From an uncultured Gammaproteobacteria bacterium (GTDB lineage: Bacteria > Patescibacteriota > Patescibacteriia > Magasanikbacterales > UBA922), in assembly GCA_964344965.1 (NCBI GenBank), contig CAYFPJ010000003.1:22280-86279 (forward strand): a DNA stretch of 64,000 bases, written 5' to 3'. The position numbers and the translations under genes are program-made. Position 1 is the first letter of the stretch. Each line of letters starts with the position of its first letter. Below the pieces are notes generated by a model. It saw only the letters and a list, made by a program, of their open reading frames with translations. It was not told the DNA's origin and did no database searches. Of this stretch, positions 1,175-62,527 are shown piece by piece.

Positions 1175-1195
1175 CATGATTTGAACTATGAAAAT

Positions 1196-1309
1196 TAATC
1201 GTCATTGCGAGGAGCGACGAAGGAGCGACGTGGCAATCTCATCGTTTTTACTCAAGACCATGAGATTGCCACGTCGTTTCGCTGCGCTCCACTCCTCGCA
1301 ATGACGATT
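1196..1309. repeat. long imperfect palindrome (~115 bp) between rnc and tRNA-Lys
   Basis: The arms aatcgtcattgcgaggag...gcaatctcatc and gatgagattgc...ctcctcgcaatgacgatt are reverse complements with a diverged centre. Confidence 0.6.
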
Positions 1310-1324
1310 TAGTTTTGCTTACTT

Positions 1325-6759: not shown

Positions 6760-6779
6760 TTGGTTTTATGCGAGTACGA

Positions 6780-6899
6780 CGCAACCCACCCTCTGTCTCC
6801 CTCCCTTAAAAAGGGAGGGAGGACGAGATAAGTAGTCTGTACTATTTAGTACGTTCCTCCTCCCTTCAAAAAGGGAGGAGGACAGGAGGTGGGTTGCGT
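6780..6899. repeat. composite palindromic element, family B copy 1 (outer stem cgcaacccacc/ggtgggttgcg enclosing two CCTCCC...GGGAGG hairpins)
   Basis: Seen directly. Its reverse complement is near-identical to 36580-36696. Confidence 0.7.
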
Positions 6900-6920
6900 T
6901 GTTTCCACTACTAAAGTTTT

Positions 6921-9580: not shown

Positions 9581-9736
9581 TTATTTTTTTCGACACCTCC
9601 TTTTGTCGTACCACACAGCGTAACGGAGTTGGGCGTACCTGACGCCCTCCTCCGCCACGAACAGGACGAGGCCGACAGCCGTTATGGCTGCGGCCACGGA
9701 GAAAGCTGCTGCCTTCTTCGCGACGCTATCGCTCAT
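9581..9736 (-). CDS. GC-rich mini-gene encoding a 51-aa single-TM peptide (MSDSVAKKAAAFSVAAAITAVGLVLFVAEEGVRYAQLRYAVWYDKRRCRKK); the ORF track omitted it because it is under 60 aa
   Basis: Translated by hand. Strong SD (AGGAAGAGGA) 6 nt upstream, a candidate -35/-10 upstream, and a GC hairpin plus T-run downstream. Local GC is far above the genome background. Confidence 0.3.
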   Translation of the reverse strand: MSDSVAKKAAAFSVAAAITAVGLVLFVAEEGVRYAQLRYAVWYDKRRCRKK

Positions 9737-9820
9737 TCCTCTTCCTGGGCTGGTTGGTTCGCTGACTTCGTGCCAGCGACATTGGTGCAGTATATCATTT
9801 GTGCATTTTTTTCAACAGTA

Positions 9821-12978: not shown

Positions 12979-14325
12979 TTATTGTGTCCACTCTTTCTTC
13001 ATTTCTAAAAATTTATTTTCTCGAATTTTTTCTCGGACCCTTTTCATCAAGTTTAACATAAAATGTAGATTGTGTATTGTGGCTAGTCTATAGGCGAGCA
13101 TTTCTCCTGCTTTGAACAGGTGATGGAGGTATTGACGAGAATGGTTTTGGCAAGTGAAGCAGGTGCAAGTTGGGTCGATTGGGTTGGGATCATTGCGGTG
13201 TTTTGTGTTGCGGATGTTGAGGGTATATTTTTTTTCTTTCAACGAAGAACCCCCCTTTATCCCCCCTACAAGGGGGGAAATATAGAGAGTACCATTTCTG
13301 GCGATGCGGGTGGGGGAGACGCAGTCGAACATGTCGACGCCGCGTTCGACAACTTCGAAGAGGTCTAGCGGAGAGTGTCCTACTCCCATAGTGTAGTGAG
13401 GTTTTTCTTTGGGAATTATAGGATTGACCCAGTCAAGGATTTGTTTGGTTGCCTCCATATTGTAACCAACACTTTCTCCACCAATGGCAATGCCATCAAA
13501 ATCAAGTGATGAAATGAATTTTGCGCTTTCTTCACGGAGATGTTTGTGATTGGCGCCTTGGATTATGCCAAAGAGAAATTTTTTATGAGTTGCAGACCCA
13601 AGAGACCCCTCCCGCACTCGCTTCGCTCGTGTCGACCTCCCCTCAGAGGGGAGGTTAACTCGCTGTAGTTTGGTATGTTCGATAAGACAGCGGCGAGCCC
13701 AGTCGTGAGTTCTTTCCATTGCTTTTTTTGTATATTTTTCATTAGCATCATCTGGGGTACATTCGTCAAAAGCCATGATGATGTCTGCTCCAATCTTGTG
13801 CTGTATATTTATTGCTTCTTCTGGAGTGAAGCGGTGTGTCGATCCGTCTATGTGGGAACGGAATGTGACACCGTCGTTGTCTATTTTGACTAGTTTTGTT
13901 TGATTGTTGGTTTGTGTTGGTGGGGTGTTACTCGATTCCAGCGAAGACCCCTCCCGCACTCGTTTCGCTCGTGTCGACCTCCCCTTATAGGGGGGGTTAT
14001 TTACTTGCTTTCTTACTTTTTCCTTACCAAGAGAGAACACCTGAAAGCCTCCTGAATCTGTTAGGACCGGCCGATCCCAGTTCATGAATTTATGGATTCC
14101 TCCAGAATCGGCAATTAGATTTTCTCCGGGTCGAAGATGAAGATGGTAAGTGTTGGCAAGAATGATTTGAGCGTCAATATTTTTCAAATCTTCGTTATCA
14201 AGAGATTTGACGGTGGCTTGGGTTCCGACTGGCATGAAGATCGGTGTTTCAACATCACCATGATCAGTATGGAGTATTCCTGTTCTTGCTAGACAGTTTT
14301 TTTCTTGATGTGTTATTTCAAACAT
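12979..14325 (-). CDS. tgt: queuine tRNA-ribosyltransferase, with three in-frame repeat-derived insertions (448 aa against ~370-385 typical)
   Basis: Tgt blocks FMPVGTQATVK, LTDSGGFQVFSL, IMAFDEC, GIAIGG, MFDCV and zinc site CxC..C are all present. Confidence 0.85.
   Translation of the reverse strand: MFEITHQEKNCLARTGILHTDHGDVETPIFMPVGTQATVKSLDNEDLKNIDAQIILANTYHLHLRPGENLIADSGGIHKFMNWDRPVLTDSGGFQVFSLGKEKVRKQVNNPPYKGRSTRAKRVREGSSLESSNTPPTQTNNQTKLVKIDNDGVTFRSHIDGSTHRFTPEEAINIQHKIGADIIMAFDECTPDDANEKYTKKAMERTHDWARRCLIEHTKLQRVNLPSEGRSTRAKRVREGSLGSATHKKFLFGIIQGANHKHLREESAKFISSLDFDGIAIGGESVGYNMEATKQILDWVNPIIPKEKPHYTMGVGHSPLDLFEVVERGVDMFDCVSPTRIARNGTLYISPLVGGIKGGSSLKEKKYTLNIRNTKHRNDPNPIDPTCTCFTCQNHSRQYLHHLFKAGEMLAYRLATIHNLHFMLNLMKRVREKIRENKFLEMKKEWTQ
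13246..13282. repeat. GC hairpin micro-repeat (CCCCCC-tacaa-GGGGGG) inserted in frame in tgt (encodes PLVGGIKGGSS)
   Basis: Same hairpin type as 49689-49709 and 37897-37917. Absent from the Tgt alignment recalled from memory. Confidence 0.6.
13604..13660. repeat. GC-rich palindromic element (agacccctcccgcactcg..gtcgacctcccct-cag-aggggagg) in frame in tgt (encodes SEGRSTRAKRVREGS)
   Basis: ~93% identical to 13944-14000. Related to the intergenic copies at 37979-38010 and 49789-49820. Confidence 0.7.
13944..14000. repeat. GC-rich palindromic element, second in-frame copy in tgt (encodes KGRSTRAKRVREGS)
   Basis: Direct sequence comparison with 13604-13660. Confidence 0.7.
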
Positions 14326-19639: not shown

Positions 19640-20250
19640 CAATTTAAAATTTAAAGACCCCCCCGTGGGATTAAATCCCCAGCTTTTAGGCTGATCTTTC
19701 AAGTCCAGGCATCCTGTGATAGTATGTCCGTATATGAAATACGAAAGAAAATCCTCCCATACCATATACGATCATAAGTACCACATATGCTGGATTACCA
19801 AGTATCGCTACCAGGTACTAAAAGGTCAGGTTGCCATTAGATTACGTGAATTAATCAAACAAGTTTGTAAGCAACAAAGCGTTGAGATTATCGAGGGTCA
19901 CGTCCGCCCAGAACACGTCCACCTATTCGTCTCAGTACCTCCACACATCTCCATCAGCAAGCTGATGCAACTAGTCAAAGGACGAACAGGCAGAAAGATG
20001 CTCCAGGAATTTGAAGAGCTTCGCAAGCGATACTATGGCGGACACCTTTGGACAAGAGGATTCTACTCTGCCACTTCAGGTAATGTAACCGACGAAACCA
20101 TCCAACAATACGTACATAGCCAAGACAAGAAAGAAATGAAAGATGACGAAACATTCCAAGTAACAGAGTAATCGTACTTTAGTGTCATTCATGACAAATT
20201 CCCACAGATTCTTTCGGCTTTAGCCGATAGTGGTTCAAATTAAAATTAAA
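19640..20250 (+). mobile_element. IS200/IS605-family insertion sequence (tnpA only); boundaries approximate
   Basis: Y1/HUH transposase gene, with subterminal hairpin-capable sequences on both sides. Confidence 0.6.
19716..20171 (+). CDS. tnpA: IS200-type transposase TnpA (Y1 HUH); the likely true start is 19734 (MKYERK)
   Basis: HICWITKYRY, HVHLFVSVPP (HUH) and the catalytic YY...G region. ~140 aa. Confidence 0.85.
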   Translation: MIVCPYMKYERKSSHTIYDHKYHICWITKYRYQVLKGQVAIRLRELIKQVCKQQSVEIIEGHVRPEHVHLFVSVPPHISISKLMQLVKGRTGRKMLQEFEELRKRYYGGHLWTRGFYSATSGNVTDETIQQYVHSQDKKEMKDDETFQVTE

Positions 20251-20266
20251 AATTCCCAATTTTTTT

Positions 20267-21175
20267 ATGCTGTGGTTCTTCATAGCCCTATTAGGATATT
20301 TTTTTCTCGCTCTGACATTTATCCTCGACAAGCTAATCCTCACCAAGTCACTTGGTAAGCCGGTGGTCTATACTTTTTATTCCACCATTTTCATGTTTGG
20401 TGCTCTTTTAGCTCTACCTTTTGGAGTAGAATTTCTCAGTGGGATGGACTGGTGGTGGGCGATTGTTTCTGGGGTTGGGTTTGGTCTTGGTCTTTGGACT
20501 TTATTCAAGGCCGTGAAAATTGGGGAGGCCTCACATATCAATCCTTTTAATGGTGCTGTAGTGACAATTGTCACCTATCTTTTTTCCTCTCATTTTGTGG
20601 GAGAATCTCTCAGCAGCTTACAAATTTCTGGAATTGTTATTTTGATTTTTGCTTCACTCTTGCTGTCATTTGAAAAATCCAAAAAGCATAGTGGATTTCA
20701 TATTGGTTTTGTTTGGGCTATTATTTCGGGAATATTTTTTGCCATGTCCCACGTTAGTGCTAAGTATCTCTATGAACTATATCCATTCCTCACTGGTTTT
20801 GTATGGACGCGTGCTACTACTGGTCTAGTAGGACTTTTTGTTTTATTTTTTCCTTCGGTCCGGGCCACTTTGAAAAAGAAAGAACAAACCAAGAGATCAG
20901 AAAAAAAGAGAAAGAAAACTATCACTCTTGTTGTCAGCACAAAATTATTGGCAGTATTAGCAGTGATCTTGATTCAGTTTGCTGCTGCCATCGGTTCAGT
21001 TTCTCTTGTTATTGCTCTTAGCGGACTGCAGTACGCTCTCATGTTTGTCATGATTTACTTACTTACCAAGTTTGCTCCCAAAGTTTTCAAAGAATACTTT
21101 ACTAAACGTGAATTGACAGTGCAGTGGGTGGCAATTTTTCTTGTAGTTGTTGGTTCGGCGATGTTTGTATTGTAG
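20267..21175 (+). CDS. polytopic membrane protein (DMT/EamA-like, 10 TM) (putative)
   Basis: Hydrophobicity pattern only. Confidence 0.35.
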   Translation: MLWFFIALLGYFFLALTFILDKLILTKSLGKPVVYTFYSTIFMFGALLALPFGVEFLSGMDWWWAIVSGVGFGLGLWTLFKAVKIGEASHINPFNGAVVTIVTYLFSSHFVGESLSSLQISGIVILIFASLLLSFEKSKKHSGFHIGFVWAIISGIFFAMSHVSAKYLYELYPFLTGFVWTRATTGLVGLFVLFFPSVRATLKKKEQTKRSEKKRKKTITLVVSTKLLAVLAVILIQFAAAIGSVSLVIALSGLQYALMFVMIYLLTKFAPKVFKEYFTKRELTVQWVAIFLVVVGSAMFVL

Positions 21176-21203
21176 GAATTATGAATCAGGAATTATGAAT
21201 TAT
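21176..21203. repeat. left inverted repeat (ggaattatgaatcaggaattatgaatta) of the pair bracketing the four-helix-bundle gene
   Basis: It is the reverse complement of 21574-21601. A third related copy lies at 35112-35139. Confidence 0.6.
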
Positions 21204-21578
21204 TATGGAGGAAAAATTAAAAGTTTTACAGACCTACATGCTTGGAAGGAGGGTCATAGACTTGTTCTTATGATTTATGAAAGTGTTAAGTTTTTTCCAA
21301 AAGAAGAATTGTTTGGTCTCGTTAGTCAAATGAAAAGAAGTTCAGTTTCTGTGACATCAAATATTTCTGAGGGATTTAGTAGAAGTTCTTATAAAGATAA
21401 ATTAAGGTTTTACTTTATGTCACTTTCTTCGATTAGTGAACTGCAAAATCAAATTTTGATAGCTCGAGATGTGGGATATATCACTACAAAAAAATTTCAA
21501 GAATTAGCAACACAAAGTATAAAAGTACACAAAATAACTAATGGCTTGATAAAGAAAACAAAAACATATATATCATAA
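21195..21578 (+). CDS. four-helix-bundle protein (TIGR02436-like, the 23S rRNA intervening-sequence protein family)
   Basis: FTDLHAWKEGHRLVLMIYE...SQMKRSSVSVTSNISEGFSR is the family signature. AGGA RBS upstream of the ATG at 21195. Confidence 0.65.
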   Translation: MNYYGGKIKSFTDLHAWKEGHRLVLMIYESVKFFPKEELFGLVSQMKRSSVSVTSNISEGFSRSSYKDKLRFYFMSLSSISELQNQILIARDVGYITTKKFQELATQSIKVHKITNGLIKKTKTYIS

Positions 21579-36541: not shown

Positions 36542-36572
36542 AAAAACTCCTGCTGATTGTGGGAGTTTTTTT
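36542..36572 (+). terminator. terminator ACTCC-tgctgattgtg-GGAGT plus T-run; a near-identical copy lies at 37856-37887
   Basis: Seen directly. Confidence 0.55.
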
Positions 36573-36579
36573 ACTACCA

Positions 36580-36696
36580 CGCAACCCACCTCCTGTCCTC
36601 CTCCCTTAAAAAAGGAGGAGGAACTTGCTGAATAGTAAATACTTATTAGAACGTCCTCCCTCCCTAATAAGGGAGGGAGACAGAGGGTGGGTTGCG
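36580..36696. repeat. composite palindromic element, family B copy 2 (inverted orientation relative to copy 1)
   Basis: cgcaacccacc...ggtgggttgcg outer stem with CCTCCTCCC/GGAGGAGG and CCTCCCTCCC/GGGAGGGAG inner hairpins. Confidence 0.7.
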
Positions 36697-36800
36697 TGAT
36701 AGCATCAAAATCCCTTGCAACACCCTCTTCTCCATGTGGACAACTTTCTTGACAGTACTATCCTATAGGTCTAAACTAAAAATAGATTATATTAATCAAT

Positions 36801-36974: not shown

Positions 36975-37544
36975 CTAGGTTCAAATAGCATTACACATCC
37001 CGGTAAAATGGGATGTTTTTTATTAGAGATTAAGTACATTTGTAGATAATAGCAGGAACCCTCTCCCCTCGGCCTGAGCTCGGGACGAAGGCCAACTCCC
37101 CCTACTAGGGGGAGGGAAATATCGGATGATCGAGGTTTGCAAGGCTGATTAAGCTATGTAGACCTTGGTTACTTCGGTAGCCTAACCTATTGACAAATGA
37201 CCTGGATACTGGTAAGTATTCAGCAAGGTTGTGGGATTTTTAAGGAATGTTGGTCTGATATTCCTTTGAAATTTCTATAACCTTTGAATCATTTGTCATT
37301 TCCCCTCGTTCTTTCCAAGGAGAAATAAGCAGCATATGAATGCACATGTTCCCCACAAACGGTGGATTAGGCGTTGATGATTTCAAGCCGGGCGGAGGTC
37401 TTTGGTAGATTATTATAATAATCTCTAAAGATCACCGTCTGGCCGAGAAATTTTTCAAAGCCGGGCACCTTGGGGCCTCGCCCCGAAACCTAAGGGGTCA
37501 TCTCGGCCCCGCATTCGGGGCATTCGCTCCAAGGAGAGAGGTCC

Positions 37545-37829
37545 ATGACCTCCGACTTCAGCACCACCACCGCCACCACCGCCACCACCGCCACGGATCC
37601 AGTGGATCCGAGAGAGACCGCCGACCCTGACACCGTCAGGGGATGGAGATCCTGGTCCGCCTCAACCGAGGAGGGAGCCGGCGTCGCCGGCAGCGGTCTT
37701 GGCCCAGCTAGGGTCGTGGTAGGGGTGGGGGAGCGTGTGAGTTCCCCGAGATGTAGGTCGTTCGCGACCTGTCTATCTCGGGCGTCATTTCGTATGCTGC
37801 CCCACCTCTCTTGTTCATTTAAGTTTTAA
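37545..37829 (+). CDS. small ORF in a ~400-bp GC-rich patch (94 aa, starts MTSDFSTTTATTATTATDPVDP); doubtful
   Basis: Strong SD AAGGAGAG 6 nt before the ATG. Contains an (ACCACCGCC)x3 microsatellite. GC content is far above background. Confidence 0.2.
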   Translation: MTSDFSTTTATTATTATDPVDPRETADPDTVRGWRSWSASTEEGAGVAGSGLGPARVVVGVGERVSSPRCRSFATCLSRASFRMLPHLSCSFKF

Positions 37830-38077
37830 GTGGGTAGAAGAGGCGGATGATTTTGAAAGACTCCTACTGATTGTGGGAGTTTTTTGTATGAAAAAATTCT
37901 CCCCCTCTTAGGGGGAGTTAGAGGAGGTTCGTTGTAATGAGATTATCTGTCATTATGTCAGTCTTATAAAATTGGTATGCACCCCTCCCAGCCTCCCCTA
38001 AAAGGGGAGGAGATATTTTGTCTTGTTAAAAAACACAATTTGAAAACACCCCTCATCTCTGATAAAGTATTCACTAT

Positions 38078-53583: not shown

Positions 53584-56500
53584 GCTGCTTATATTTTTAG
53601 TACTACCGACAGCAGTCGTTGCTTCAATAATATTCAAACTCCCTTTCCAAGAAGGTGAGTATAGGGTTTTAACCAGGGGTTATGGTGTGCAGACTCATGT
53701 CGGCAAAGATGTGTATGCATTAGATTTTGCACTTGATGGCTGTGATTCTTGGAATAGGCCAGTAGTGGCGTTCATGGGTGGTACTGTAAGTAAGGTAGAC
53801 ACTGGCCATAAGCATGGGGAGAAAAATAGTTACGGAAACCAGGTGTTAATAGAGCATGAAGATAATTTGGTAAGTAGGTATGCTCACTTAAATGAGGTGT
53901 TGGTTGATGTTGGTAATGAAATTAAGCAAGGAGAGATTTTAGGAAGAGAAGGTAATACAGGGAGTGTTTGGGGCTCTGCATGTAAAGAACACCCCGGAAC
54001 ACATCTTCATTTTGTTGTATACAAGAGGGATGATTTTGGTAACCTCGCTCCTTACAAACCAGAGCCCATGTCTGGTTATCAAAATTTTACACCCGGAAAA
54101 TGGTACCAATCTGACAATAAAATTCAGGAAGAAAATAAAGAAGAGCCAACAGAACCTCCACAAACAAAACCACAAAAAAATCCTTCCTTTTTTGAAAAAA
54201 TAAAAGATTTTTTTAAAGATATTTTTTATGGAGATGATAATGAGGTAGAGACAGAAGTAGAAGAAGAAATAGTTTCAGAGGAAAATGATTTGGGTGATAG
54301 CTTGGAAAAAACTTATAATGTTTCCATCTTAAACACCCCTGCCTCTGCAGAAGTGGACAAAGATACTGCAGAATATCAGGTAGTGGTAAAAATAAAAAAT
54401 ACCAGTGATATTACAATAAAAAAAGAAGAATTCTCGGTCAACATTGTAGGTGAGCCATATCAATACACAGATTATTATCACCCCTCTTGGCTGACAAAGA
54501 GAAGGCCTGCACATCTCGACCAGAGCGAGATTGAACCTGGACAAAATGGTACTTTTTCATTTCTCATTTCGGTCCCCCCGGAACCTGGAAAACACAATTT
54601 TCAATTACAAATTGTCCGTCAAGAAGGCAGTCAGTTTTTTCAAGTTGGCGGTCAGTTTTTTGACCTAAACATACAGAAACAAGAAGAACAAAAAATAGAG
54701 GAAGAAAACGTGGAAGAAGTACTTGGTGAGAAAATATATCAAGAGGAAAGTGAAGGAGTGGTGGAGAAGGCCAAAGAAATAATTGAAGACGTCAGTGACA
54801 CAGTAGAAGAAATAATAGAAGATTTTGTCGAAGTATTGCCCCCATTTTTTTATGGAGGCGGGTCTTCTCAAACAGAGGGGAGTGAAAATGTGGAAGAGCA
54901 AGAGGAGGATGCTGTCGAAGACGATAATCCAGAAGATAGCATCCCTCATATCACAATCACCAATCCGGCTGGCTTGGAAGTGTTTACCAATAATCAGATC
55001 TTAACCATCGAAGGAACTAGGAGCGCTGAAGATGTGGATATTTATATCAATGGAGTGCCAAATTCAGTATCATTTTCTTCTGGCACAAACTGGTCTACAG
55101 AGATGAATTTGGAAGAAGGAGAAAATATTTTTGAAATTTGGGGAGAAGATAGTGATGAGAATAAGACTGCCGTTTTTTCTTTTTTGGTTGTTTTAGATAC
55201 TACATCTCCGACAGTTCCCACTATAGACATCATACAGACTAACTTTGTCACTCCCACACTTCAAGTGAGCTGGTCTAGCACAGATGATGGAGTCGGGGTG
55301 AGTAGCTACGATGTGGAGTATAAAATTGGCAATGAAGATTGGAGTAGTTTATTTTTACACACCACCACAACAGAGAGTGAAATACAAGTCGAACAACAGC
55401 AAGAATATTTTTTTAGAGCTAGAGCTAGAGATGTATTGGAGAATATTTCTGAATGGAGTGGTGACGAAGACAGTGTTTTCTTTGCTGACTGGACAAAAGA
55501 TGTAGTCATCAACGAGGTGGCTTGGATGGGTACCTCTGCTGTAAAAAATCTATCCAACGACTGTACAAAAAATGAGTGGTTGGAATTGTACAACGGTACT
55601 GCAGAGAATATCAATTTGGATTCTTGGGCACTGGGTATACTCTCTCCAAATGGAGATGTCCAAACCATTGAATTATCTGGAAGCATCTTGCCAGAAGATT
55701 ATTATTTGATCGTGAGGAAGCTCGGTAAGAGGCAAGCTCTGAAAAATATTGAAATTGGTCAAATTTTTGAATCAATTGACATTCCTAACAATGGTGGAAG
55801 TCTGGTACTGAAAGATGAATCTGGAAATATCATAGATGAAGTCGACTTTTCCACTGGATGGCCTGGAGGGTCTGTCAGCTCTGGGCCAAATAATAATTTT
55901 TATCAACCAATGTCGCGGGTCTCTCCCAATGCGCCTGGAAGTTTGTCGTCAAATTGGGGTACCAGCTCTCACTTATCAATGTTTGGTTCGACTGATAACT
56001 GTGGAGAGCTATTTGGTAGTCCTGGTAAAAAAAATAATCAACTTTGGCTACTAAAAAATTTACCATTTTATTATGCTGACTTTTTTGAAAATGGAGAAAT
56101 GGTTCTTGAGGAAAAACATAGTCCTTATGTCTTAGACTATGGTACAGAAGTGCCGGTCGGGAAAATGATGAAAATAAATCCCGGAGTGACAGTGGTAGGT
56201 GCAGGTCCGGATGCTTATTTGCGAGTCACTGGTGATCTGTCTGTAAATGGTACAAGTGAGAAGCCGGTAGTTTTTACTTCAGCTCGAGATTTAGATTATG
56301 GAGATTGGAATTTGCCAAATTTTGACCAAGAAGATCCTCGGCCTGGAGATTGGTCACGAATCGAGGTCGAAGAAGGTGGTAGTATCCATATTGACCATGC
56401 AGAATTTTTGTATGGAGGATATCCTTTCAAAAAAGGGAATGATTGGGTCTATGGACTCAAAGAGCTTTCTCAAGTGATTAGAGTGTCTTCGGCAAATGCA

Positions 56501-57439
56501 GATATTAGTAATTCTAAATTTTTGTACAATTATGAATATGATCTCGAACCATACTATAATTCTGTTGTATGGGTCGATACACAAAAAGGTGAGCCTTCTA
56601 TAATAGATTTTGACAACAATATCTTTGACTCAGGATATGTGGCGATAAACTTGTGGGGTCAAAACAATGGTTTGGAAATAAATTCTACAATTACAAATAA
56701 TATTATTCAAAATTTTTCTAGTCCAGAAGGCCCCCTTAAATTCATTCATAATTCGCCAACATTAATAGATAATACATTTTTAAATAACATTTTTGATGGT
56801 ATTTCTGGAGGACATATTTTGGTGAGTGATGCGCAGACAATGGACCCAAGTTTTTCACATATTTATGATGAAATAGAGATATTAGACTCTGGCAGCTTGA
56901 TCATTCCGGCTGGTACTGAACTGTATATTCGTGTTGGAGGAGGTATAATAAATAGTGGTTTTTTAAATTTTAGCGGCACCAATATTGCTCCTATCAACAT
57001 ATCTGGCTATGGTGGAAGTTGGGGTAACATGACTACTGATGGAGGTGTGCTTTCGGCAAATTATTTGAATATGAAAGGAGGAAGTGGAGCTGAGGGGATG
57101 CTTATTTTGGAAAATCAATCTGTAGCCAACATTGAGAATAGTCAGCTTATGGATTCAAGTAGGCCGGGGATTATCTTGCAAAGCACAGGGAGTGAGATTA
57201 ATTTGAAAAATACAACAGTGGGCTGGAGTACACCTCTGGCAGCAGATGCACCAGATAGTTGGACAACGACTGGGATAGAAATGTTTGGTGGAAGTTTGAG
57301 TTTGGACAATGTCACTCTACAAGAGATGACAAATGGGATAATTGGCTATGATGGGGCTATCGCTACTATGATCAATATGTCCAGCAGCAGTTTTATAAAT
57401 ATTAGTGAATTGGATTGGTGGCCTGATGACCTGCTGTAG
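53543..57439 (+). CDS. large secreted multidomain protein: N-terminal M23 (LytM-like) metallopeptidase, an Ig/Fn3-like region, a lamin-tail domain, and C-terminal right-handed beta-helix repeats
   Basis: M23 motifs HVGKDVYALDF...GNQVLIEHEDNLVSRYAHL...GTHLHFVV. LTD motif VVINEVAWMG...NEWLELYNGTAENINLDSW. NNIIQNF-type beta-helix repeats. Confidence 0.65.
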   Translation: MKLSKKLLKARVAKLLIFLVLPTAVVASIIFKLPFQEGEYRVLTRGYGVQTHVGKDVYALDFALDGCDSWNRPVVAFMGGTVSKVDTGHKHGEKNSYGNQVLIEHEDNLVSRYAHLNEVLVDVGNEIKQGEILGREGNTGSVWGSACKEHPGTHLHFVVYKRDDFGNLAPYKPEPMSGYQNFTPGKWYQSDNKIQEENKEEPTEPPQTKPQKNPSFFEKIKDFFKDIFYGDDNEVETEVEEEIVSEENDLGDSLEKTYNVSILNTPASAEVDKDTAEYQVVVKIKNTSDITIKKEEFSVNIVGEPYQYTDYYHPSWLTKRRPAHLDQSEIEPGQNGTFSFLISVPPEPGKHNFQLQIVRQEGSQFFQVGGQFFDLNIQKQEEQKIEEENVEEVLGEKIYQEESEGVVEKAKEIIEDVSDTVEEIIEDFVEVLPPFFYGGGSSQTEGSENVEEQEEDAVEDDNPEDSIPHITITNPAGLEVFTNNQILTIEGTRSAEDVDIYINGVPNSVSFSSGTNWSTEMNLEEGENIFEIWGEDSDENKTAVFSFLVVLDTTSPTVPTIDIIQTNFVTPTLQVSWSSTDDGVGVSSYDVEYKIGNEDWSSLFLHTTTTESEIQVEQQQEYFFRARARDVLENISEWSGDEDSVFFADWTKDVVINEVAWMGTSAVKNLSNDCTKNEWLELYNGTAENINLDSWALGILSPNGDVQTIELSGSILPEDYYLIVRKLGKRQALKNIEIGQIFESIDIPNNGGSLVLKDESGNIIDEVDFSTGWPGGSVSSGPNNNFYQPMSRVSPNAPGSLSSNWGTSSHLSMFGSTDNCGELFGSPGKKNNQLWLLKNLPFYYADFFENGEMVLEEKHSPYVLDYGTEVPVGKMMKINPGVTVVGAGPDAYLRVTGDLSVNGTSEKPVVFTSARDLDYGDWNLPNFDQEDPRPGDWSRIEVEEGGSIHIDHAEFLYGGYPFKKGNDWVYGLKELSQVIRVSSANADISNSKFLYNYEYDLEPYYNSVVWVDTQKGEPSIIDFDNNIFDSGYVAINLWGQNNGLEINSTITNNIIQNFSSPEGPLKFIHNSPTLIDNTFLNNIFDGISGGHILVSDAQTMDPSFSHIYDEIEILDSGSLIIPAGTELYIRVGGGIINSGFLNFSGTNIAPINISGYGGSWGNMTTDGGVLSANYLNMKGGSGAEGMLILENQSVANIENSQLMDSSRPGIILQSTGSEINLKNTTVGWSTPLAADAPDSWTTTGIEMFGGSLSLDNVTLQEMTNGIIGYDGAIATMINMSSSSFINISELDWWPDDLL

Positions 57440-57578: not shown

Positions 57579-57704
57579 ACGAGTAGTGTGAATTAAAATT
57601 GATATTTTCCTTATTTTAGCAAAATATGAATTTTCCGCATATCTATTTTCTAAAAATATTTAGCTAAATTAAGCCAAACGAGTCTAATTCACACTACTCG
57701 TTAA
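57579..57704. mobile_element. 126-bp element with 17-bp terminal inverted repeats (ACGAGTAGTGTGAATTA ... TAATTCACACTACTCGT), copy 1
   Basis: 100% identical to 62363-62488 in direct orientation. Perfect TIRs and no coding capacity. Confidence 0.65.
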
Positions 57705-57721
57705 TTAGTGATTAGAAAAAT

Positions 57722-57757
57722 AAAAACATCCTAATAGATATTGGGATGTTTTTTTAG
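57722..57757 (+). terminator. terminator ACATCC-taatagatatt-GGGATGT plus T-run
   Basis: Seen directly. Confidence 0.5.
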
Positions 57758-57769
57758 AACTTACATCAT

Positions 57770-57876
57770 TCAGTCGGAAATATATATCTTTGACTTGGCG
57801 CCAACTCAGGATCGCAAGCAGCGGCGCTCAAGTCAAAGATATATATTTTTTCCTAAAGCTCAAACGTATAAGTCCT
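57770..57876. repeat. 107-bp hairpin element D, copy A (left flank of the GC island)
   Basis: ~75-80% identical to 58769-58876. The internal hairpin is kept by compensatory changes (gacttg/caagtc against gtcttg/caagac). Confidence 0.65.
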
Positions 57877-57986
57877 ATTTTTTTTGAGAAAGGAATCTTT
57901 CCAGAATTGGAAGAGCGGACCTGTGGGAGGGTCCGCTCGTTGTTCGCCGCCGCCCGCCTCCGGAGAGGCAGGCGACGACAGGCAAT

Positions 57987-58715
57987 TCAATCGACGAAGG
58001 GGGTGCGGTGGCACCACTCCTTCGTCGAAAGCTGGACGTCGCCGTCCTTCCCCGTCACCTGACGGGTCTGGACGAGACACCCGTCCTCGCCGAGGAAGGT
58101 CTCGTAGACCTCCTCGGCGAGGACCGTTTCAAATTCGTCGAGGTAGGTGAGGATTACCCTCACCGGGAGCTCGGCCTGGAGGCCGAACTCGCCCTGGAGG
58201 AGCGCCTCGCTCCCCCAGACCTCGACGAGCCACTGCTCGTCGTGTGGGGTGGCGTGGAACTCTACCACGCCGTCCCACAGCCCCACAGCGTTGGCGAAGG
58301 GGCCCTCCACCTCGACCGTGGGGTCGTCGTCGACCCCGACATTTGGAGACTCGGGCAGTGCCCGAGTCTCCGCTGCCAGGGGGGGGTGGCCAGTGACCGC
58401 CCCCTCGTTGGTTGCCCCCGCCACCTTGGCGGGGGCTTCTGTCGCGACCGGCCCCTCGATTGGGGCCGAGTCACACCCCCCCGCCCAAAGGGCGAGGAGG
58501 ACCGCCGCCAGAATGGCGGCGGGGCGGCGCTCAATCCACCGGCCGGTGGAGAGCGCCGAGGCACGGGTGTGTCGCACCCGTCCTCCTTCCCCTTGCGGGG
58601 GGTGTGTGGAGCTCCCGCCATCATCCCCCGTGGATGATGGCAGTTGCTCCGGTAATGAGAAGCGCTTTTTTTGCAAAGATATTCTCAATACCGGAGCAGG
58701 AGAGTCTCCATTCAT
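57987..58715 (-). CDS. secreted/lipoprotein-like acidic protein in a ~65% GC island (signal ...AAILAAVLLALWAGGC)
   Basis: Signal peptide plus Cys. GC hairpin just downstream. All six frames are open in this island, so the frame is chosen by protein-likeness. Confidence 0.35.
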   Translation of the reverse strand: MNGDSPAPVLRISLQKKRFSLPEQLPSSTGDDGGSSTHPPQGEGGRVRHTRASALSTGRWIERRPAAILAAVLLALWAGGCDSAPIEGPVATEAPAKVAGATNEGAVTGHPPLAAETRALPESPNVGVDDDPTVEVEGPFANAVGLWDGVVEFHATPHDEQWLVEVWGSEALLQGEFGLQAELPVRVILTYLDEFETVLAEEVYETFLGEDGCLVQTRQVTGKDGDVQLSTKEWCHRTPFVD

Positions 58716-58768
58716 TTATTCTAGTGAATTTTTGTATCCACAAAGAAAAATCTTAGGACTTACGCCTT

Positions 58769-58876
58769 TCAGTCGGAGATATATCCCTTTGTCTTGGCGC
58801 TAACTGAAAGTCGCAAGCACTAGCGCTCAAGACAAAGGGATGTATTTCCTCCTTATAGCTCAAAGGCGTAAGTCCT
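58769..58876. repeat. 107-bp hairpin element D, copy B (right flank of the GC island)
   Basis: Direct comparison with copy A. Confidence 0.65.
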
Positions 58877-59297
58877 GAATCTTTAGAAGATGTCTGTACG
58901 TATCAAAGATTCATTTTTGTAGATACAAATCTACCAATGATATTAGTTACTTTCATTGATTTAACAAAAGTATTTTTTCGCTGTGAAATTCTCCGCCAAC
59001 TGGCGGATCAGACAATCTTCGCTTCAAAAATACTTTTGTTAAATCAATTGGGGAAAATAATTGCCTTGAATTACGAAAACCTGCCTTGAGAGCGAATAAA
59101 TAAAAGTTATATTCCTCCCCCGCCTTCGGCGGGGGAGGAATATTTCTCTTTTTTCTTCGCAGCAAGTTTAGCTTCGTAATCCAAAGTAATTAATATCATT
59201 GGTAAATCCACCAAGAGTTATCAAGGCCCAATTATCCATTATCTAGTATCTCTCAAAAAATATAGTTTTGTCAAGATATGACTAGATAATTGCCCTA

Positions 59298-62177
59298 TTA
59301 TAAACGAGATGTTTCATGATAGCGGACAGATTTGTCCACTCTTAAAATTTTTTCATTTCTACTATTTTCTAACACATCTCCGATATATGATGGAGTAGAA
59401 AATACATCACTATAGAAGTCAAAAAAATCTGGTTCAATAATCAATCTTAGATCATCGAAAATCACTGCTCCACTGTCTTGGGCAGACAAGTCTTCATCAG
59501 TCATCATCATTACTTTTATAGAAGCTGTATTGTCTGGGATTTTTTTGTTTTTGGCAAACAGTTGGACTTTTTCGGGATTGCTCCCTGGCACATAAAAGAT
59601 TTTGTACATTTCATTTATTACTACGCCGGCATCATCCAAAAATTGGATTTTCAATACAGGATCGAGATTGCTCGGCCCACTTTTCACTTTGGCTTCTAGA
59701 TTGGCCGACAGCCAGCCAAAATTCACCTCTGGAATATCAAGACAATCCAGAGAAACCTCTTGACTTAGACTACCCCCTTTATATATCTGGAAGTGGGGAT
59801 TTCCGCCAAAGTCAAATAAGCCAACTTTTTTTAGATCATTGGCCTGCCATGATGACAAGTCATTGTCTTTTGCTCCCGGATTCAAGAGATTGGACGACGA
59901 AGGATAAGTGACTGAAGCCCTGACAGAATTATAGTTGACAGGATCAATTGTAACGGCACTTTCAGTGCCAACCAAAGTCTCTGCAGGATCAAATGTCCCT
60001 TTGGCATACCATTGTATTGCCATGTCTGTCTCTTCTATCTCTGCATCAAGTTCAATTGGGATCTTGGCGAGATAATTCCCAGACCATGGAAGAGGATCAA
60101 GAGTAATGGTGTTAAGTTTTAATTTGTTTCTACATGTTGCATCAAAGGTCATCGTTCGGAGACCTTTGGTTTCTTCATTGAAATATTTTGCCAAATTTAA
60201 TTCTGCTTGGATTGGTCTACTTTTCAAAAAGTATTCGATGTCATCAATTTTTTGTTGCCAAGTTTTTTTCCAATCACTAGCACTTTTATCAGACTCTTCA
60301 AAGGGAATAATCCATTTTTCAGCTTGTTTCTCTATCTCTGGATCTATTTTTTGAGCTAGTTCTTCTAGGAGGGGAATCGTATTTTTTGATTTGAAATGAG
60401 TATTCAAAAGATCAAGATAACGATTGATGAATTGATGACGAAATGTTTCATTATCCATCATCTTATCTAGGACAAAACCAAATAGAGATGGGGCTGGGCC
60501 TTGCCAGTCCACACCACTAAGCACTTCATCAATTTTATTTTGATTAATGGCATTATTGACTCCCACCTGTGCACCAAAAGTAGAGTCTCCATCTTTCAGT
60601 ACCCAGTGCCAAACATCATGAGAGCTTTCTGTTGATTGCCAAAATTTTATATTGTTGCCAGGCCAATCATTGTTGGATACAAATATGTTCAAGATTGCAT
60701 AGTCTATAATATTTTCTACATCAACATTATTTTTAATAAAAGAATAAGCAGATCCAGAATCCATGTCATATTCATTGAGAGCATAAAAAAATTCTTCAAA
60801 ATTTTCATTATGAAATACTCCAATCTCTTCATCTTCTCCAAACTCGACGCTATCTTTGTCAACATTATGATTTGACTCCACATAGTATTGATCTATTCTC
60901 TCTCGGAGATTGTAAATACCATAGTATTCTCCATTTACAAATAGAGAAACAGGTATATATTCTTGATTATCTACATTCAACCCTCTACCAAGCACATTTA
61001 AGAGAGGATCATTGAGGTGACTAGCTATTGCAGGAGACGCAAAACTACTTTGACTACCACTGCGAAGGACTAGTCTTTTGAAAGTATCAATATTTTTTTC
61101 TGGAAAAAATTGGTATTCAAAATTATCAGTCCCATATTTTTCTCTTGCATAAAGGCGAAATGAACCTGGTGGCACATCTGAAAATTTTGCAATACCATTT
61201 CTTTTCATTCCGACATTTGCCCGCAATATTGGCTCTCCAGTGGGTGAAAAATACTCAAAATAACCCTGATGTTCATATACATTTTGGTTGGTAGTGTCCA
61301 AGACTCCTTTTGCGCCAAACAAATCATGATCTGTGGATATAATAGATACAATAGGAAGGGTAGATTGTTCATTGAAAAAAAATGTCCGATTTACGACTTG
61401 ACTGGCTCCGCCATTTTCGTCAAATGCTTTGGCACGTATGACCATGGTATCGGTGCCATTGATAGGCTGGGTGTAAAATATGCCGGATTTATCTGGAATA
61501 GAGCCATCAAGTGTATAGCGAATTTCCAAATCCAAATTTATCTCGTTATTTTCTGATATCGCTAGCAGCCCCACCCAAAAAGGATTGTATTGGATGCTGC
61601 TTGTATCTGAAAACAAAGGAGAAAGCAAGATTTGACTTTCAGCGTTTTCTTCTGCCGGTGTGGGAATGGCAAATGTCGACCAGGTATTGCCTCCGGCAAG
61701 TCTGCCGTATGAGATGTCTACAGGCAACTGATCAAAGTATACTTCATCGATGAGAGTGATTCCTGCTGGGTTATAAATACCGACATATTCACCATCTGCA
61801 TCTAATTTGAATTTTAGTTCATTAGGGTATGGGGGACTATCTCCATTGGCCCACAAGATGCGATATTCATGAGGCCCTATGTCCGGAGTATCGGATGGAA
61901 TCATGGTCTTGTCTGGATTTTCTGGATCGTCTGTAATCAGGAGATTGGCGATGGTGATCGGCTTGTCTGTAGGGTTGTACAACTCTATCCAATCTGAATA
62001 ACCTGTGACAGGGTGCTCTAAGGTATTGCCATTGGCAGACATTAGTTCATTTATTACCAAATCTTGCAATTCTCCTTTCACTTGTAACGGAAAAAACACC
62101 AATCCGATGAAGAATATCAACATGCTTATTTTTTTACCTATGTATAGGCAATATTTTGTCTTTTTGTTTAGATGCAT
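59298..62177 (-). CDS. secreted lamin-tail-domain plus CotH-family protein (959 aa)
   Basis: Signal-anchor. LTD block LVINELMSANGN...SDWIELYNPTDKPITIANL. The central region resembles the CotH kinase-like family. Recalled from memory. Confidence 0.6.
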   Translation of the reverse strand: MHLNKKTKYCLYIGKKISMLIFFIGLVFFPLQVKGELQDLVINELMSANGNTLEHPVTGYSDWIELYNPTDKPITIANLLITDDPENPDKTMIPSDTPDIGPHEYRILWANGDSPPYPNELKFKLDADGEYVGIYNPAGITLIDEVYFDQLPVDISYGRLAGGNTWSTFAIPTPAEENAESQILLSPLFSDTSSIQYNPFWVGLLAISENNEINLDLEIRYTLDGSIPDKSGIFYTQPINGTDTMVIRAKAFDENGGASQVVNRTFFFNEQSTLPIVSIISTDHDLFGAKGVLDTTNQNVYEHQGYFEYFSPTGEPILRANVGMKRNGIAKFSDVPPGSFRLYAREKYGTDNFEYQFFPEKNIDTFKRLVLRSGSQSSFASPAIASHLNDPLLNVLGRGLNVDNQEYIPVSLFVNGEYYGIYNLRERIDQYYVESNHNVDKDSVEFGEDEEIGVFHNENFEEFFYALNEYDMDSGSAYSFIKNNVDVENIIDYAILNIFVSNNDWPGNNIKFWQSTESSHDVWHWVLKDGDSTFGAQVGVNNAINQNKIDEVLSGVDWQGPAPSLFGFVLDKMMDNETFRHQFINRYLDLLNTHFKSKNTIPLLEELAQKIDPEIEKQAEKWIIPFEESDKSASDWKKTWQQKIDDIEYFLKSRPIQAELNLAKYFNEETKGLRTMTFDATCRNKLKLNTITLDPLPWSGNYLAKIPIELDAEIEETDMAIQWYAKGTFDPAETLVGTESAVTIDPVNYNSVRASVTYPSSSNLLNPGAKDNDLSSWQANDLKKVGLFDFGGNPHFQIYKGGSLSQEVSLDCLDIPEVNFGWLSANLEAKVKSGPSNLDPVLKIQFLDDAGVVINEMYKIFYVPGSNPEKVQLFAKNKKIPDNTASIKVMMMTDEDLSAQDSGAVIFDDLRLIIEPDFFDFYSDVFSTPSYIGDVLENSRNEKILRVDKSVRYHETSRL

Positions 62178-62362: not shown

Positions 62363-62488
62363 AACGAGTAGTGTGAATTAAAATTGATATTTTCCTTATT
62401 TTAGCAAAATATGAATTTTCCGCATATCTATTTTCTAAAAATATTTAGCTAAATTAAGCCAAACGAGTCTAATTCACACTACTCGTTA
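62363..62488. mobile_element. 126-bp element with terminal inverted repeats, copy 2 (identical to 57579-57704)
   Basis: Identity seen directly. Confidence 0.65.
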
Positions 62489-62527
62489 TTTAACAAAAAG
62501 CTATATCCATCAGAACATTTGGTTAAT

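What the first reader, a model, noticed from the sequence alone, without database searches (positions are those of the whole stretch)
57770..58876. GC-rich cassette 2 (secreted/lipoprotein-like gene) bracketed by diverged 107-bp hairpin direct repeats with compensatory stem changes
The ~890-bp ~65% GC segment (57877-58768) encodes on the minus strand a 242-aa secreted/lipoprotein-like acidic protein. It is flanked by two copies of a 107-bp element (57770-57876 and 58769-58876) that are only ~75-80% identical. The copies retain a long internal hairpin through paired substitutions (gacttg/caagtc against gtcttg/caagac, and atatatc/gatatat against atccc/gggat).
Structure-conserving, sequence-divergent flanks are the hallmark of recombination sites such as integron attC sites or IS200/IS605-like hairpin ends. 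A gene cassette bounded by such sites would be a mobile module of a kind not described for this lineage.
Basis: partly seen in the sequence, partly recalled or inferred. Interest (0 to 1): 0.7.

Follow-up and report, generated by a model that had tools for sequence, protein, structure and literature searches.

The report
Foreign GC-rich lipoprotein gene between hairpin repeats
A small, very GC-rich gene for a secreted lipoprotein-like protein sits in an AT-rich bacterial chromosome between two diverged copies of a hairpin-forming repeat; it looks like an imported gene that landed in a repeat-rich gap, and nothing shows that the hairpins act as recombination sites.

Summary
Two direct copies of a ~122-nt hairpin element (57756-57877 and 58755-58877; 95/123 identical) bracket an ~800-bp block of 67-70% GC in a 39.6% GC chromosome. 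Five stem pairs differ by compensatory double changes. Contigs from four sequencing runs and two assemblers span both junctions at 100% identity, so it is not a chimera.

The recombination-site reading is not supported:
- There are no attC core motifs.
- The window has no integrase. Its only HUH transposase, an IS200 38 kb away, has unrelated ends.
- A covariance model finds only these two hairpin copies.
- A second GC-rich module (49905-50470) lacks these hairpins.
- The intergenic DNA is crowded with unrelated long palindromes.

The block is a self-contained unit: structured leader, lipoprotein-like ORF (most likely 196 aa from a GTG start), and GC-rich 3' hairpins. Both modules share a gap-free, covarying three-way-junction leader (8 compensatory pairs, none broken) that matches no Rfam family. 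The protein's only homologue is an AT-rich gene beside homologues of the same neighbouring genes in another bacterium.

Best reading: a recently imported high-GC gene module between two resident palindromic repeats. The donor and the insertion mechanism are unknown.

The parts
57756..57877 (+). Hairpin repeat, left copy (hpL). It is partly degenerate in the outer stem. The repeat unit extends over 57754-57887.
   Evidence: Alignment and repeat finder. Fold -39.9 kcal/mol, z -7.0. Covariance model R1 scores 144 bits. Pair census.
58755..58877 (+). Hairpin repeat, right copy (hpR). It is a nearly perfect 50-pair hairpin. The repeat unit extends over 58753-58887, and it is nested inside a further inverted repeat (58731-58754 with 58906-58929).
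   Evidence: I2, I10, I12; -73.1 kcal/mol, z -12.4. R1 scores 151.7 bits. 46 Watson-Crick plus 4 G-T pairs.
57900..58715 (-). GC-rich module 2 as a whole: 66.7% GC overall, 69.6% in the core, with sharp composition boundaries.
   Evidence: Spanned by contigs from four runs.
58578..58712 (-). Structured 5' leader: a three-way junction (P1, long P2, P3) followed by a C-run/G-run hairpin that abuts the GGAGG ribosome-binding site. The core 58603-58711 aligns without gaps to the module-1 leader.
   Evidence: Fold -67.8 kcal/mol, z -6.7. 31 shared pairs, 8 changed on both sides, 0 broken; slid controls give 0-4. No Rfam family. R2 scores 120.5 bits.
57987..58577 (-). ORF for a 196-aa acidic, lipoprotein-like secreted protein (GTG start; signal peptide ...AAVLLALWAGGC). 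The longer 242-aa reading starts at the ATG at 58715.
   Evidence: GC by codon position 0.75/0.48/0.85; pI 4.4; codon usage unlike the host's. Sole homologue is P0002. The model shows a C-terminal eight-strand beta domain.
57886..57986 (-). 3' untranslated region: two GC-rich hairpins (16 and 9 pairs) enclosed by a GAAUUG/CAAUUC stem. This is the likely terminator and RNA-stabilising structure.
   Evidence: Fold -58.8 kcal/mol, z -7.5.
58716..58754 (-). AT-rich spacer between hpR and the leader. It holds a -10-like TAGAAT (58723-58718) but no consensus promoter. Positions 58731-58754 also form the outer arm of the inverted repeat around hpR.
   Evidence: Sequence. The promoter scan found nothing here. 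I10.
57579..57707 (+). 129-nt hairpin element, copy A. A 99%-identical direct copy lies at 62364-62492, so the pair brackets the CotH gene plus module 2. Short-read contigs break here.
   Evidence: D5; I6.
62364..62492 (+). 129-nt hairpin element, copy B.
   Evidence: D5. In L001 this copy is joined to different genes.
59298..62177 (-). Neighbouring CotH/lamin-tail-domain surface protein gene. Its homologue sits next to the AT-rich homologue of the module-2 protein in another bacterium.
   Evidence: Pfam. 38% identity to the gene downstream of P0002. Bidirectional terminator at 59109-59143.
49905..50470 (-). GC-rich module 1, the sister element. It comprises a leader (50323-50465), a 120-aa lipoprotein-like ORF (49960-50322) and a 3' hairpin (49910-49940). 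It is not flanked by the hpL/hpR family.
   Evidence: (GC by codon position 0.74/0.57/0.83). The protein has no homologue.

Best explanation
The ~800-bp GC-rich block is a recently imported, self-contained gene module from an unidentified high-GC donor. It consists of a structured 5' leader, an ORF for a small acidic lipoprotein-like surface protein, and GC-rich 3' hairpins.

It sits in the 1.86-kb gap between two convergent surface-protein genes. That gap is a patchwork of unrelated long palindromic repeats. The two flanking hairpins are two neighbouring, old copies of one resident AT-rich palindromic repeat of the MITE/REPIN type. The module landed between them.

The hairpins' paired substitutions would come from a constraint on hairpin formation, or from the two arms evolving in concert. 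They would not come from service as cassette recombination sites.

The module's expression is probably controlled by its leader. There, a C-run/G-run hairpin next to the ribosome-binding site lies downstream of a conserved three-way junction.

Shown: the anatomy, the foreign coding composition, the shared covarying leader, the reality of the junctions, and the absence of integron or IS200/IS605 hallmarks. Inferred: the direction and recency of transfer, insertion by non-site-specific means, and the regulatory role of the leader.
For: Foreign composition:
- 69.6% GC core against 39.6% for the window, with sharp edges.
- GC3 of 0.85, with CTC/GCC/GGG/GAG/GTC/CCC codon preferences opposite to the host's, and an Ala/Val/Gly/Pro-rich protein.
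- A and T, and C and G, are balanced, so there is no strand-specific mutational signature.

Real junctions: contigs from four runs and two assemblers span both at 100% identity.

A family of modules: module 1 (49905-50470) has the same build. Its leader aligns to the module-2 leader without gaps over 109 nt at 53% identity. Of 31 shared pairs, 8 are compensatory and none is broken. The two ORFs are unrelated.

Hairpins look resident and older than the insert:
- They are 39-47% GC.
- They are 22% diverged, and hpL is decaying, while the ORF still has GC3 of 0.85. A duplication made at insertion is therefore unlikely (inference).

Palindromes are everywhere in the intergenic DNA: the 129-nt element, the 58929-59207 composite, 1191-1315, 36566-36710, 6776-6902, 49676-49826, 37895-38012, and in-frame copies inside tgt.

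No site-specific machinery or motifs were found.
Against: - No donor was found. The protein's only homologue among 1.84 billion representatives is an AT-rich gene (P0002) in another AT-rich bacterium. That gene lies beside homologues of the same two neighbours, the CotH-like gene and a large surface protein. This is awkward for a random import from an unrelated high-GC organism.
- A pair of the same hairpin exactly bracketing the insert, with similar 22-40 nt AT-rich spacers on each side, is a coincidence under this model.
- Only 64 kb of one genome could be examined, so the claim that the repeat is a dispersed resident family is not demonstrated.
- No cassette-free allele was seen.
Confidence: 0.5

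Rival explanations
1. The hairpins are site-specific recombination sites, attC-like or hairpin ends recognised by an HUH or tyrosine recombinase as folded single strands. The cassette plus one hairpin would then be a mobile unit that inserted at a resident hairpin.
For: - Direct orientation, size within the attC range (122 nt), conserved structure with diverged sequence, and a conserved apical loop (ACT..TCGCAAGCA).
- The insert is foreign in composition.
- An IS200-type Y1 transposase gene exists in the window.
Against: - No RYYYAAC or GTTRRRY motifs.
- No integrase in 64 kb.
- The IS200 copy has its own short, unrelated hairpin ends and lies 38 kb away.
- Only two copies, even by covariance model.
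- Module 1 has the same leader but lacks these hairpins.
- The hairpins have host-like GC, unlike the cargo.
- No hits to the hairpin core in species-representative genomes or viral contigs, and only chance hits in JGI metagenomes.
Confidence: 0.12
2. The GC-rich modules are themselves a family of small mobile or RNA-mediated elements. The conserved three-way-junction 'leader' would be the functional end, for example a recognition structure for a trans-acting recombinase or reverse transcriptase. The modules would carry different surface-lipoprotein cargo between related bacteria, and the flanking hairpins would be incidental.
For: - Two modules with unrelated cargo share a colinear, covarying leader.
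- The GC-rich block begins at the leader's first helix and ends just after the 3' hairpins, so it has the shape of a transcript.
- The module-2 cargo belongs to a family otherwise seen only in a related AT-rich bacterium at the matching locus.
Against: - Only two instances are known.
- The leader pattern has no match in species-representative genomes, viral contigs or JGI metagenomes.
- No reverse transcriptase or recombinase is nearby.
- A ribosome-binding-site hairpin directly after the junction fits an ordinary cis-regulatory 5' UTR.
Confidence: 0.12
3. The gene is native: a relative of P0002 that stayed in the CotH locus and became GC-rich in place through some local GC-driving process.
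For: - Homology to an AT-rich gene flanked by homologues of the same two neighbours.
- No high-GC homologue exists anywhere in the protein collections.
Against: - Edges are sharp within 30 nt.
- Codon usage and amino-acid composition are fully shifted.
- Third positions against P0002 are saturated and show no clear transition-only signal.
- There is no strand asymmetry.
- The gene lies on the other side of CotH from P0002's position.
- No mechanism known to me makes an isolated 800-bp patch 70% GC (own knowledge).
Confidence: 0.05
4. Assembly chimera: high-GC DNA from another organism was mis-joined into the contig.
For: Extreme composition contrast. The source is a metagenome-assembled contig.
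Against: - Four runs and two assemblers give identical contigs across both junctions.
- A second module with a homologous leader lies 8 kb away, and its ORF is also found on an independent Logan contig.
Confidence: 0.02

Closest known systems
Integron gene cassettes with attC sites, including integrase-less attC clusters (CALINs)
   Same: A short gene bracketed by direct copies of imperfect palindromes of about 120 nt. Their structure is conserved better than their sequence, and the cargo is compositionally foreign.
   Different: There are no R''/R' core motifs, no IntI and no attI, and only one bracketed gene. The hairpins have host composition. The sister module lacks them. The cargo carries its own structured leader and terminators, which is not typical of promoterless cassettes.
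REP/REPIN elements with RAYT transposases, and bacterial MITEs (for example Correia, RUP, ERIC and Rickettsia palindromic elements)
   Same: Non-coding, AT-rich, hairpin-forming intergenic repeats of 100-150 nt with terminal inverted repeats. The arms co-vary. Several unrelated families crowd the intergenic DNA of the same genome, and some copies sit in frame inside a gene (tgt), as Rickettsia palindromic elements do.
   Different: Only two copies were seen and no target-site duplication could be established. No RAYT flanked by this repeat was found; the window's Y1 transposase looks like an ordinary IS200.
IS200/IS605-family ends and their palindrome-associated derivatives (PATEs)
   Same: Hairpins acted on as single strands by an HUH Y1 transposase, and a Y1 transposase gene is present in the window.
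   Different: In my understanding, IS200/IS605 ends are short subterminal hairpins that differ between the left and right end and flank tnpA and/or tnpB. Here the flanks are 122-nt direct repeats around an unrelated lipoprotein gene, and they share no sequence with the IS200 copy's ends.
Small horizontally acquired genomic islets
   Same: Sharp compositional discontinuity, alien codon usage, location between convergent genes, and surface-protein cargo.
   Different: No donor, integrase, or tRNA/tmRNA attachment site was identified. The module is unusually small (0.6-0.8 kb). It recurs with a conserved structured leader. Its only homologue is an AT-rich gene at the matching locus of another bacterium.

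Membership tests
Integron cassette / attC site | Conserved core sites R'' (RYYYAAC) and R' (GTTRRRY) at the base of the hairpin | tested here: not met
   A regex on both strands of hpL and hpR with 20 nt of flank, and of both leaders, gave no match.
Integron cassette / attC site | IntI tyrosine recombinase (with attI and Pc) next to the array; may be absent in CALINs | tested here: not met
   Pfam scans of the window's ORFs of 120 aa or more found no integrase domain. The other 28 kb of the 92-kb source contig was not available.
Integron cassette / attC site | At least two attC-like imperfect palindromes of 57-141 nt, in direct orientation, separated by cassettes | tested here: inconclusive
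   Two 122-nt hairpins lie 1 kb apart in direct orientation. There are only two, with one cassette. No attC covariance model was available here.
IS200/IS605 element or PATE | Short subterminal hairpins at the left and right ends flanking tnpA (Y1 HUH) and/or tnpB, or ends matching those of a resident IS | tested here: not met
   There is no tnpA or tnpB between the hairpins. The resident IS200 (19716-20171) has different, short end hairpins. R1 does not hit its ends.
REPIN/RAYT system | Tens to hundreds of copies per genome and a single-copy RAYT gene flanked by the same repeat | not testable with these tools
   Only a 64-kb window was available, and it holds two copies. The source genome is absent from the searchable DNA collections.
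MITE | Terminal inverted repeats, no coding capacity, size 50-500 nt | tested here: met
   Terminal inverted repeats TTAGGACTTACGCC / GGCGTAAGTCCTGAA. The 122-nt hairpin has no credible ORF.
MITE | Target-site duplication and multiple dispersed copies | tested here: inconclusive
   A TA flank is possible for hpL, but hpR has TA...TG. Only two adjacent copies are known.
Horizontally acquired islet | Composition and codon usage deviate from the host's, with sharp boundaries | tested here: met
Horizontally acquired islet | Absent from the orthologous site in close relatives, and a donor lineage can be identified | tested here: inconclusive
   There are no close strains; the window's proteins are in singleton 90% clusters. 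The related locus (L007-L012) ends before the region downstream of CotH. No donor was found.
Known cis-regulatory RNA (any Rfam family) for the leader | Match to an Rfam covariance model | tested here: not met
   There is no gathering-score hit. In E-value mode only chance-level microRNA and sRNA matches appear.

The most novel reading that the evidence does not exclude
The GC-rich modules are a previously undescribed class of very small gene-shuttling elements in streamlined, AT-rich (probably candidate-phyla-radiation) bacteria. Each would consist of a conserved three-way-junction structure, a surface lipoprotein gene and terminal hairpins. They would move between lineages of very different GC content and settle at hairpin repeats in surface-protein loci. 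The structured ends, the flanking hairpins, or both would be the recognition sites of a trans-acting enzyme.
Probability: 0.12. Interest if true: 0.8.

Novelty: new variant of a known kind. Interest (0 to 1): 0.5.

Why it matters
If the ordinary reading holds, this is a clean example of very small, un-ameliorated foreign surface-protein genes being taken up by an AT-rich, probably symbiotic bacterium. It also shows how palindrome-rich gaps between convergent genes tolerate such insertions.

Three features go beyond the ordinary:
- Sister modules recur; at least two share the leader, and two further small GC-rich islands lie in the same 64 kb.
- The modules share a strongly covarying three-way-junction leader with no Rfam match, which is a candidate new regulatory or mobility RNA.
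- The cargo's only relative is an AT-rich gene at the matching locus of another bacterium.

Together these raise the question of where these bacteria obtain or exchange surface lipoproteins, and by what route. The question becomes testable once the full genome and the reads are examined.

Tried and rejected
- **Hairpin core in public DNA:** the pattern (CTTGGCGCNAACTNNNNNTCGCAAGCA and a shorter form) gave 0 hits in species-representative genomes and 0 in viral contigs. It gave 24 hits in JGI metagenomes, all chance matches in high-GC DNA without any hairpin context.
- **Leader pattern in public DNA:** 0 hits in genomes, viral contigs and metagenomes.
- **Rfam:** nothing for the hairpins or leaders.
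- **Covariance models R1 and R2:** run on the window and on related loci, they found no further copies. The weak hits are unrelated long hairpins.
- **Protein searches for the cargo:**
  - Pfam, NCBIfam and PHROGs gave nothing.
  - The word-indexed search found only the protein itself.
  - The profile search added nothing beyond P0002.
  - Module 1's protein has no homologue.
- **Possible donors:** blastn of the cassette against plasmids and phages gave no match.
- **Transition-only hypermutation (A to G, T to C) of a P0002-like ancestor:** third positions are saturated and the test is uninformative.
- **Adenine-specific, retroelement-type mutagenesis:** rejected, because A and T, and C and G, are balanced on the sense strand.
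- **Cassette-free allele or close strains:** every contig carrying the neighbouring genes has the cassette, and the window's proteins have no 90%-identity cluster mates.
- **Walking beyond the window:** the tool refuses proteins that are not encoded in the window, and contigs carrying window genes stay inside it.
- **Literature:** searches for the project accession and for integrons or palindromic repeats in this group found nothing relevant.
Full report
**1. What is at the coordinates**

The window is a bacterial chromosome of 39.6% GC. It encodes RNase III, NusB, QueA, Tgt, ClpP, Ndk and KsgA. It also encodes many very large surface proteins with lamin-tail, CotH, Ig-like and beta-helix domains. 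This gene content suggests a candidate-phyla-radiation bacterium; that is my inference and was not tested.

The finding lies in the 1.86-kb gap between two convergent genes. One is an M23-peptidase/lamin-tail protein (53543..57439, +). The other is a CotH/lamin-tail protein (59298..62177, -).

Two direct copies of a hairpin-forming element are present:
- Repeat units 57754-57887 and 58753-58887.
- Hairpins proper 57756-57877 (hpL) and 58755-58877 (hpR).
- 95/123 positions identical; the longest identical run is 10 nt.

Each copy folds into a single long hairpin far more stable than shuffled controls (z -7.0 and -12.4). On hpR's 50-pair hairpin, five pairs differ on both sides yet stay paired, and several more stay paired through G-T. 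hpR is nearly perfect. hpL has lost pairing in its outer stem (3 mismatches and 3 A-C).

**2. The block between the hairpins**

The block runs from 57900 to 58715. Its GC is 66.7% overall and 69.6% in the core, with edges sharp to within about 30 nt. Read on the minus strand it is a complete expression unit:
- **Leader (58578-58712).** It folds into a three-way junction, followed by a C-run/G-run hairpin that abuts a GGAGG ribosome-binding site.
- **ORF.** The 242-aa reading from the ATG at 58715 overlaps the leader. The more likely start is the GTG at 58577, 7 nt after GGAGG, giving 196 aa. One public assembly calls the gene this way. The product starts with a signal peptide that ends in a cysteine (AAVLLALWAGGC) and is acidic (pI 4.4).
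- **3' end (57886-57986).** Two GC-rich hairpins are enclosed by a short closing stem (z -7.5).

GC by codon position is 0.75/0.48/0.85. Codon preferences (CTC, GCC, GGG, GAG, GTC, CCC) are opposite to those of the neighbouring host genes. This is a real gene that evolved under high-GC pressure.

**3. It is not an assembly artefact**

Contigs from runs ERR2281800, -02, -03 and -04 of project PRJEB17505 span hpL, the block and hpR at 100% identity. They were assembled by MEGAHIT (ENA) and by Logan. These short-read contigs break at a different repeat, a 129-nt hairpin element. Two 99%-identical direct copies of it (57579-57707 and 62364-62492) bracket CotH plus the block.

**4. A sister module and a shared structured leader**

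A second GC-rich island (49905-50470, 67% GC) has the same build:
- leader 50323-50465;
- a 120-aa lipoprotein-like ORF at 49960-50322 (MRLIVAIAAALVLGAAC...);
- a 3' GC hairpin at 49910-49940.

The two ORFs are unrelated. The two leaders, however, align without a single gap over 109 nt at 53% identity and fold alike. Of 31 shared base pairs, 20 are unchanged, 3 differ on one side and 8 differ on both sides. None is broken. Sliding the 3' partners by 1-3 columns gives 0-4 double changes and only 39-58% of cells paired. Helix P3 alone carries six compensatory pairs. G-U pairs in P2 of the module-1 leader form only on the ORF's strand, which points to RNA (sequence).

No Rfam family matches. A covariance model of the leader finds only these two copies in the window.

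Two smaller GC-rich islands exist: about 37440-37800, and a 50-codon membrane-peptide ORF at 9597-9747. Neither has this leader.

**5. Test of the recombination-site interpretation**

- Neither hairpin, nor either leader, contains the attC core motifs RYYYAAC or GTTRRRY on either strand.
- Pfam scans of the window's ORFs of 120 aa or more show no tyrosine recombinase.
- One HUH enzyme is present, an IS200-type Y1 transposase at 19716-20171 (E 1.9e-41). It is a compact IS200 copy with its own short end hairpins, unrelated in sequence, and lies 38 kb away.
- The hairpin family has only these two copies in 64 kb. This holds for a pattern search with mismatches and for a covariance model run without filters. 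The next hits are unrelated long hairpins, such as 1198-1310.
- Module 1, which shares the leader and so presumably the origin, is not flanked by this hairpin. It abuts other palindrome families.
- The hairpins have host-like composition (39-47% GC), unlike the cargo.
- Their 22% divergence, with one copy decaying, contrasts with the un-ameliorated GC3 of the ORF. The two copies therefore probably predate the insert and are not a duplication made by it (inference).
- Differences between the copies are spread evenly, with no crossover-like mosaic.

The compensatory pattern is real, but it does not by itself indicate a recombination site. It is also expected for any palindromic repeat that must fold. 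Examples are a single-stranded transposition intermediate, a transcript hairpin, or an element whose two arms are copied from one another.

The window's intergenic DNA is full of such elements from several unrelated families. Two copies of a 55-nt palindromic repeat even sit in frame inside tgt.

**6. Where the cargo comes from**

The 196-aa protein has no Pfam, NCBIfam or PHROG match. The word-indexed search of 5.8 billion proteins found no homologue.

A full HMMER scan of 1.84 billion representatives found one true relative, P0002. It is 198 aa, with E 1.7e-6 and 38% identity over the C-terminal 100 residues. The conserved motif is FAN..G.WD....F.A.P.D...LVE.WG..A.L.GE.G.Q..LP, and two cysteines are also conserved. 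A profile search added nothing further.

P0002 is an ordinary AT-rich gene (38% GC, GC3 0.32). It is tightly packed between other genes in contigs from several unrelated metagenomes. Its downstream neighbour is a homologue of the window's CotH protein, matching from residue 2 onward at 38% identity (E 8e-32). The divergent upstream neighbour is a homologue of the large surface protein that starts near 62.6-62.7 kb in the window and runs off its end (36% identity).

So the same three families are neighbours in both genomes. In the window, however, the P0002-family gene lies on the other side of CotH, beyond CotH's terminator (59109-59143), and it is GC-rich. No high-GC homologue, plasmid match or phage match was found.

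The predicted structure shows a C-terminal eight-strand beta domain (pLDDT 66-84) with no significant structural neighbour.

**7. Interpretation**

The sharp edges, shifted codon and amino-acid usage, balanced base composition and saturated third positions argue for long residence in a high-GC genome followed by recent import. They argue against in-place conversion.

The shared leader says that both modules came from the same kind of source. I therefore favour this reading (about 0.5): a foreign lipoprotein gene module that landed between two neighbouring copies of a resident palindromic repeat, in a gap where insertions are tolerated.

The matching-locus homologue and the missing donor are not explained by this reading. 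They keep three alternatives open:
- The modules are a small mobile family delimited by their own structures (0.12).
- The hairpins are genuine recombination sites (0.12).
- The gene is native and was recoded in place (0.05).

A chimera is very unlikely (0.02).

**8. Limits**

- Only 64 kb of a 92-kb contig was available.
- The genome is not in the searchable DNA collections.
- No close strains exist in the protein collection.
- Genome-wide hairpin counts, empty sites and circular forms could not be examined.

Noticed in passing
window 49905-50470 (-): A second GC-rich module (67% GC). It has a 120-aa lipoprotein-like ORF with no homologue, and a leader that is colinear and covarying with the module-2 leader. 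This leader is a candidate new structured RNA motif with no Rfam match.
   Followed up: yes
window 50844-50920 (+): A 77-nt tRNA-like gene with an encoded CCA end, a G3-U70-type acceptor stem and a T-arm (GGGGTTCAACTCCCC). It matches only the two ends of the Rfam tmRNA model (21.4 bits, below the gathering score), is not called by ARAGORN, and folds as a cloverleaf (z -3.5). It lies about 370 nt from GC-rich module 1, and a TTGCAG...TATACT promoter-like site lies just upstream.
   Followed up: partly
window 13603-13657 and 13945-13999, inside tgt (12979..14325, -): Two 93%-identical copies of a 55-nt GC-rich palindromic repeat (AGACCCCTCCC...CCTCCCCT.A.AGGGGAGG) sit in frame inside the queuine tRNA-ribosyltransferase gene. 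The Pfam TGT match is split into two stretches. This recalls the Rickettsia palindromic elements that insert into coding sequence.
   Followed up: partly
window 57579-57707 and 62364-62492; locus L001 1-4363: A 129-nt hairpin element in two 99%-identical direct copies brackets CotH plus module 2. In one public assembly (L001) the copy upstream of CotH is joined to different genes (phosphatase, Lgt, TPK, SSF transporter). This means either a third copy elsewhere, a rearrangement, or a mis-join at a repeat barely longer than the k-mer.
   Followed up: partly
window 9597-9747 (-): A mini GC-rich island encoding a roughly 50-aa hydrophobic peptide (MSDSVAKKAAAFSVAAAITAVGLVLFVAEEG...). It has an AT-rich promoter-like site, a GC-rich 5' hairpin, and GC-rich palindromes downstream. 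It may be a small toxin-like or membrane peptide of foreign composition.
   Followed up: no
window 37440-37800 (+): A GC-rich island (56-65% GC) between ndk and ksgA. It has a structured start, an AAGGAGAGAGG ribosome-binding site and a 94-codon ORF (MTSDFSTTTATTATTAT...). There is no clear coding signature in GC by codon position, and it has no leader of the module 1/2 type. It lies next to a roughly 120-150-nt palindromic element (37895-38012), a relative of which (49676-49826) also abuts module 1.
   Followed up: partly
window 19716-20171 (+): A compact IS200-type element: a Y1 HUH transposase of 151 aa (Pfam E 1.9e-41) with short hairpins on either side, and no tnpB.
   Followed up: partly
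window 21147-21578 (+): A four-helix-bundle protein of the 23S-rRNA-intervening-sequence / bAvd-like family (Pfam E 1.9e-32). No reverse transcriptase is visible in the window.
   Followed up: no
window 1191-1315 (+), next to tRNA-Lys and tRNA-Arg (950-1175): A nearly perfect 113-nt hairpin (AATCGTCATTGCGAGGAGCGACG...), unrelated to hpL/hpR. Short-read contigs of this genome also break here.
   Followed up: no
loci L007-L012 (P0002 locus in another bacterium): P0002 is preceded by a 193-aa secreted protein of unknown family and followed by a CotH/lamin-tail gene. The identical protein recurs in metagenomes from several unrelated projects (ENA and JGI), so that organism is widespread.
   Followed up: partly
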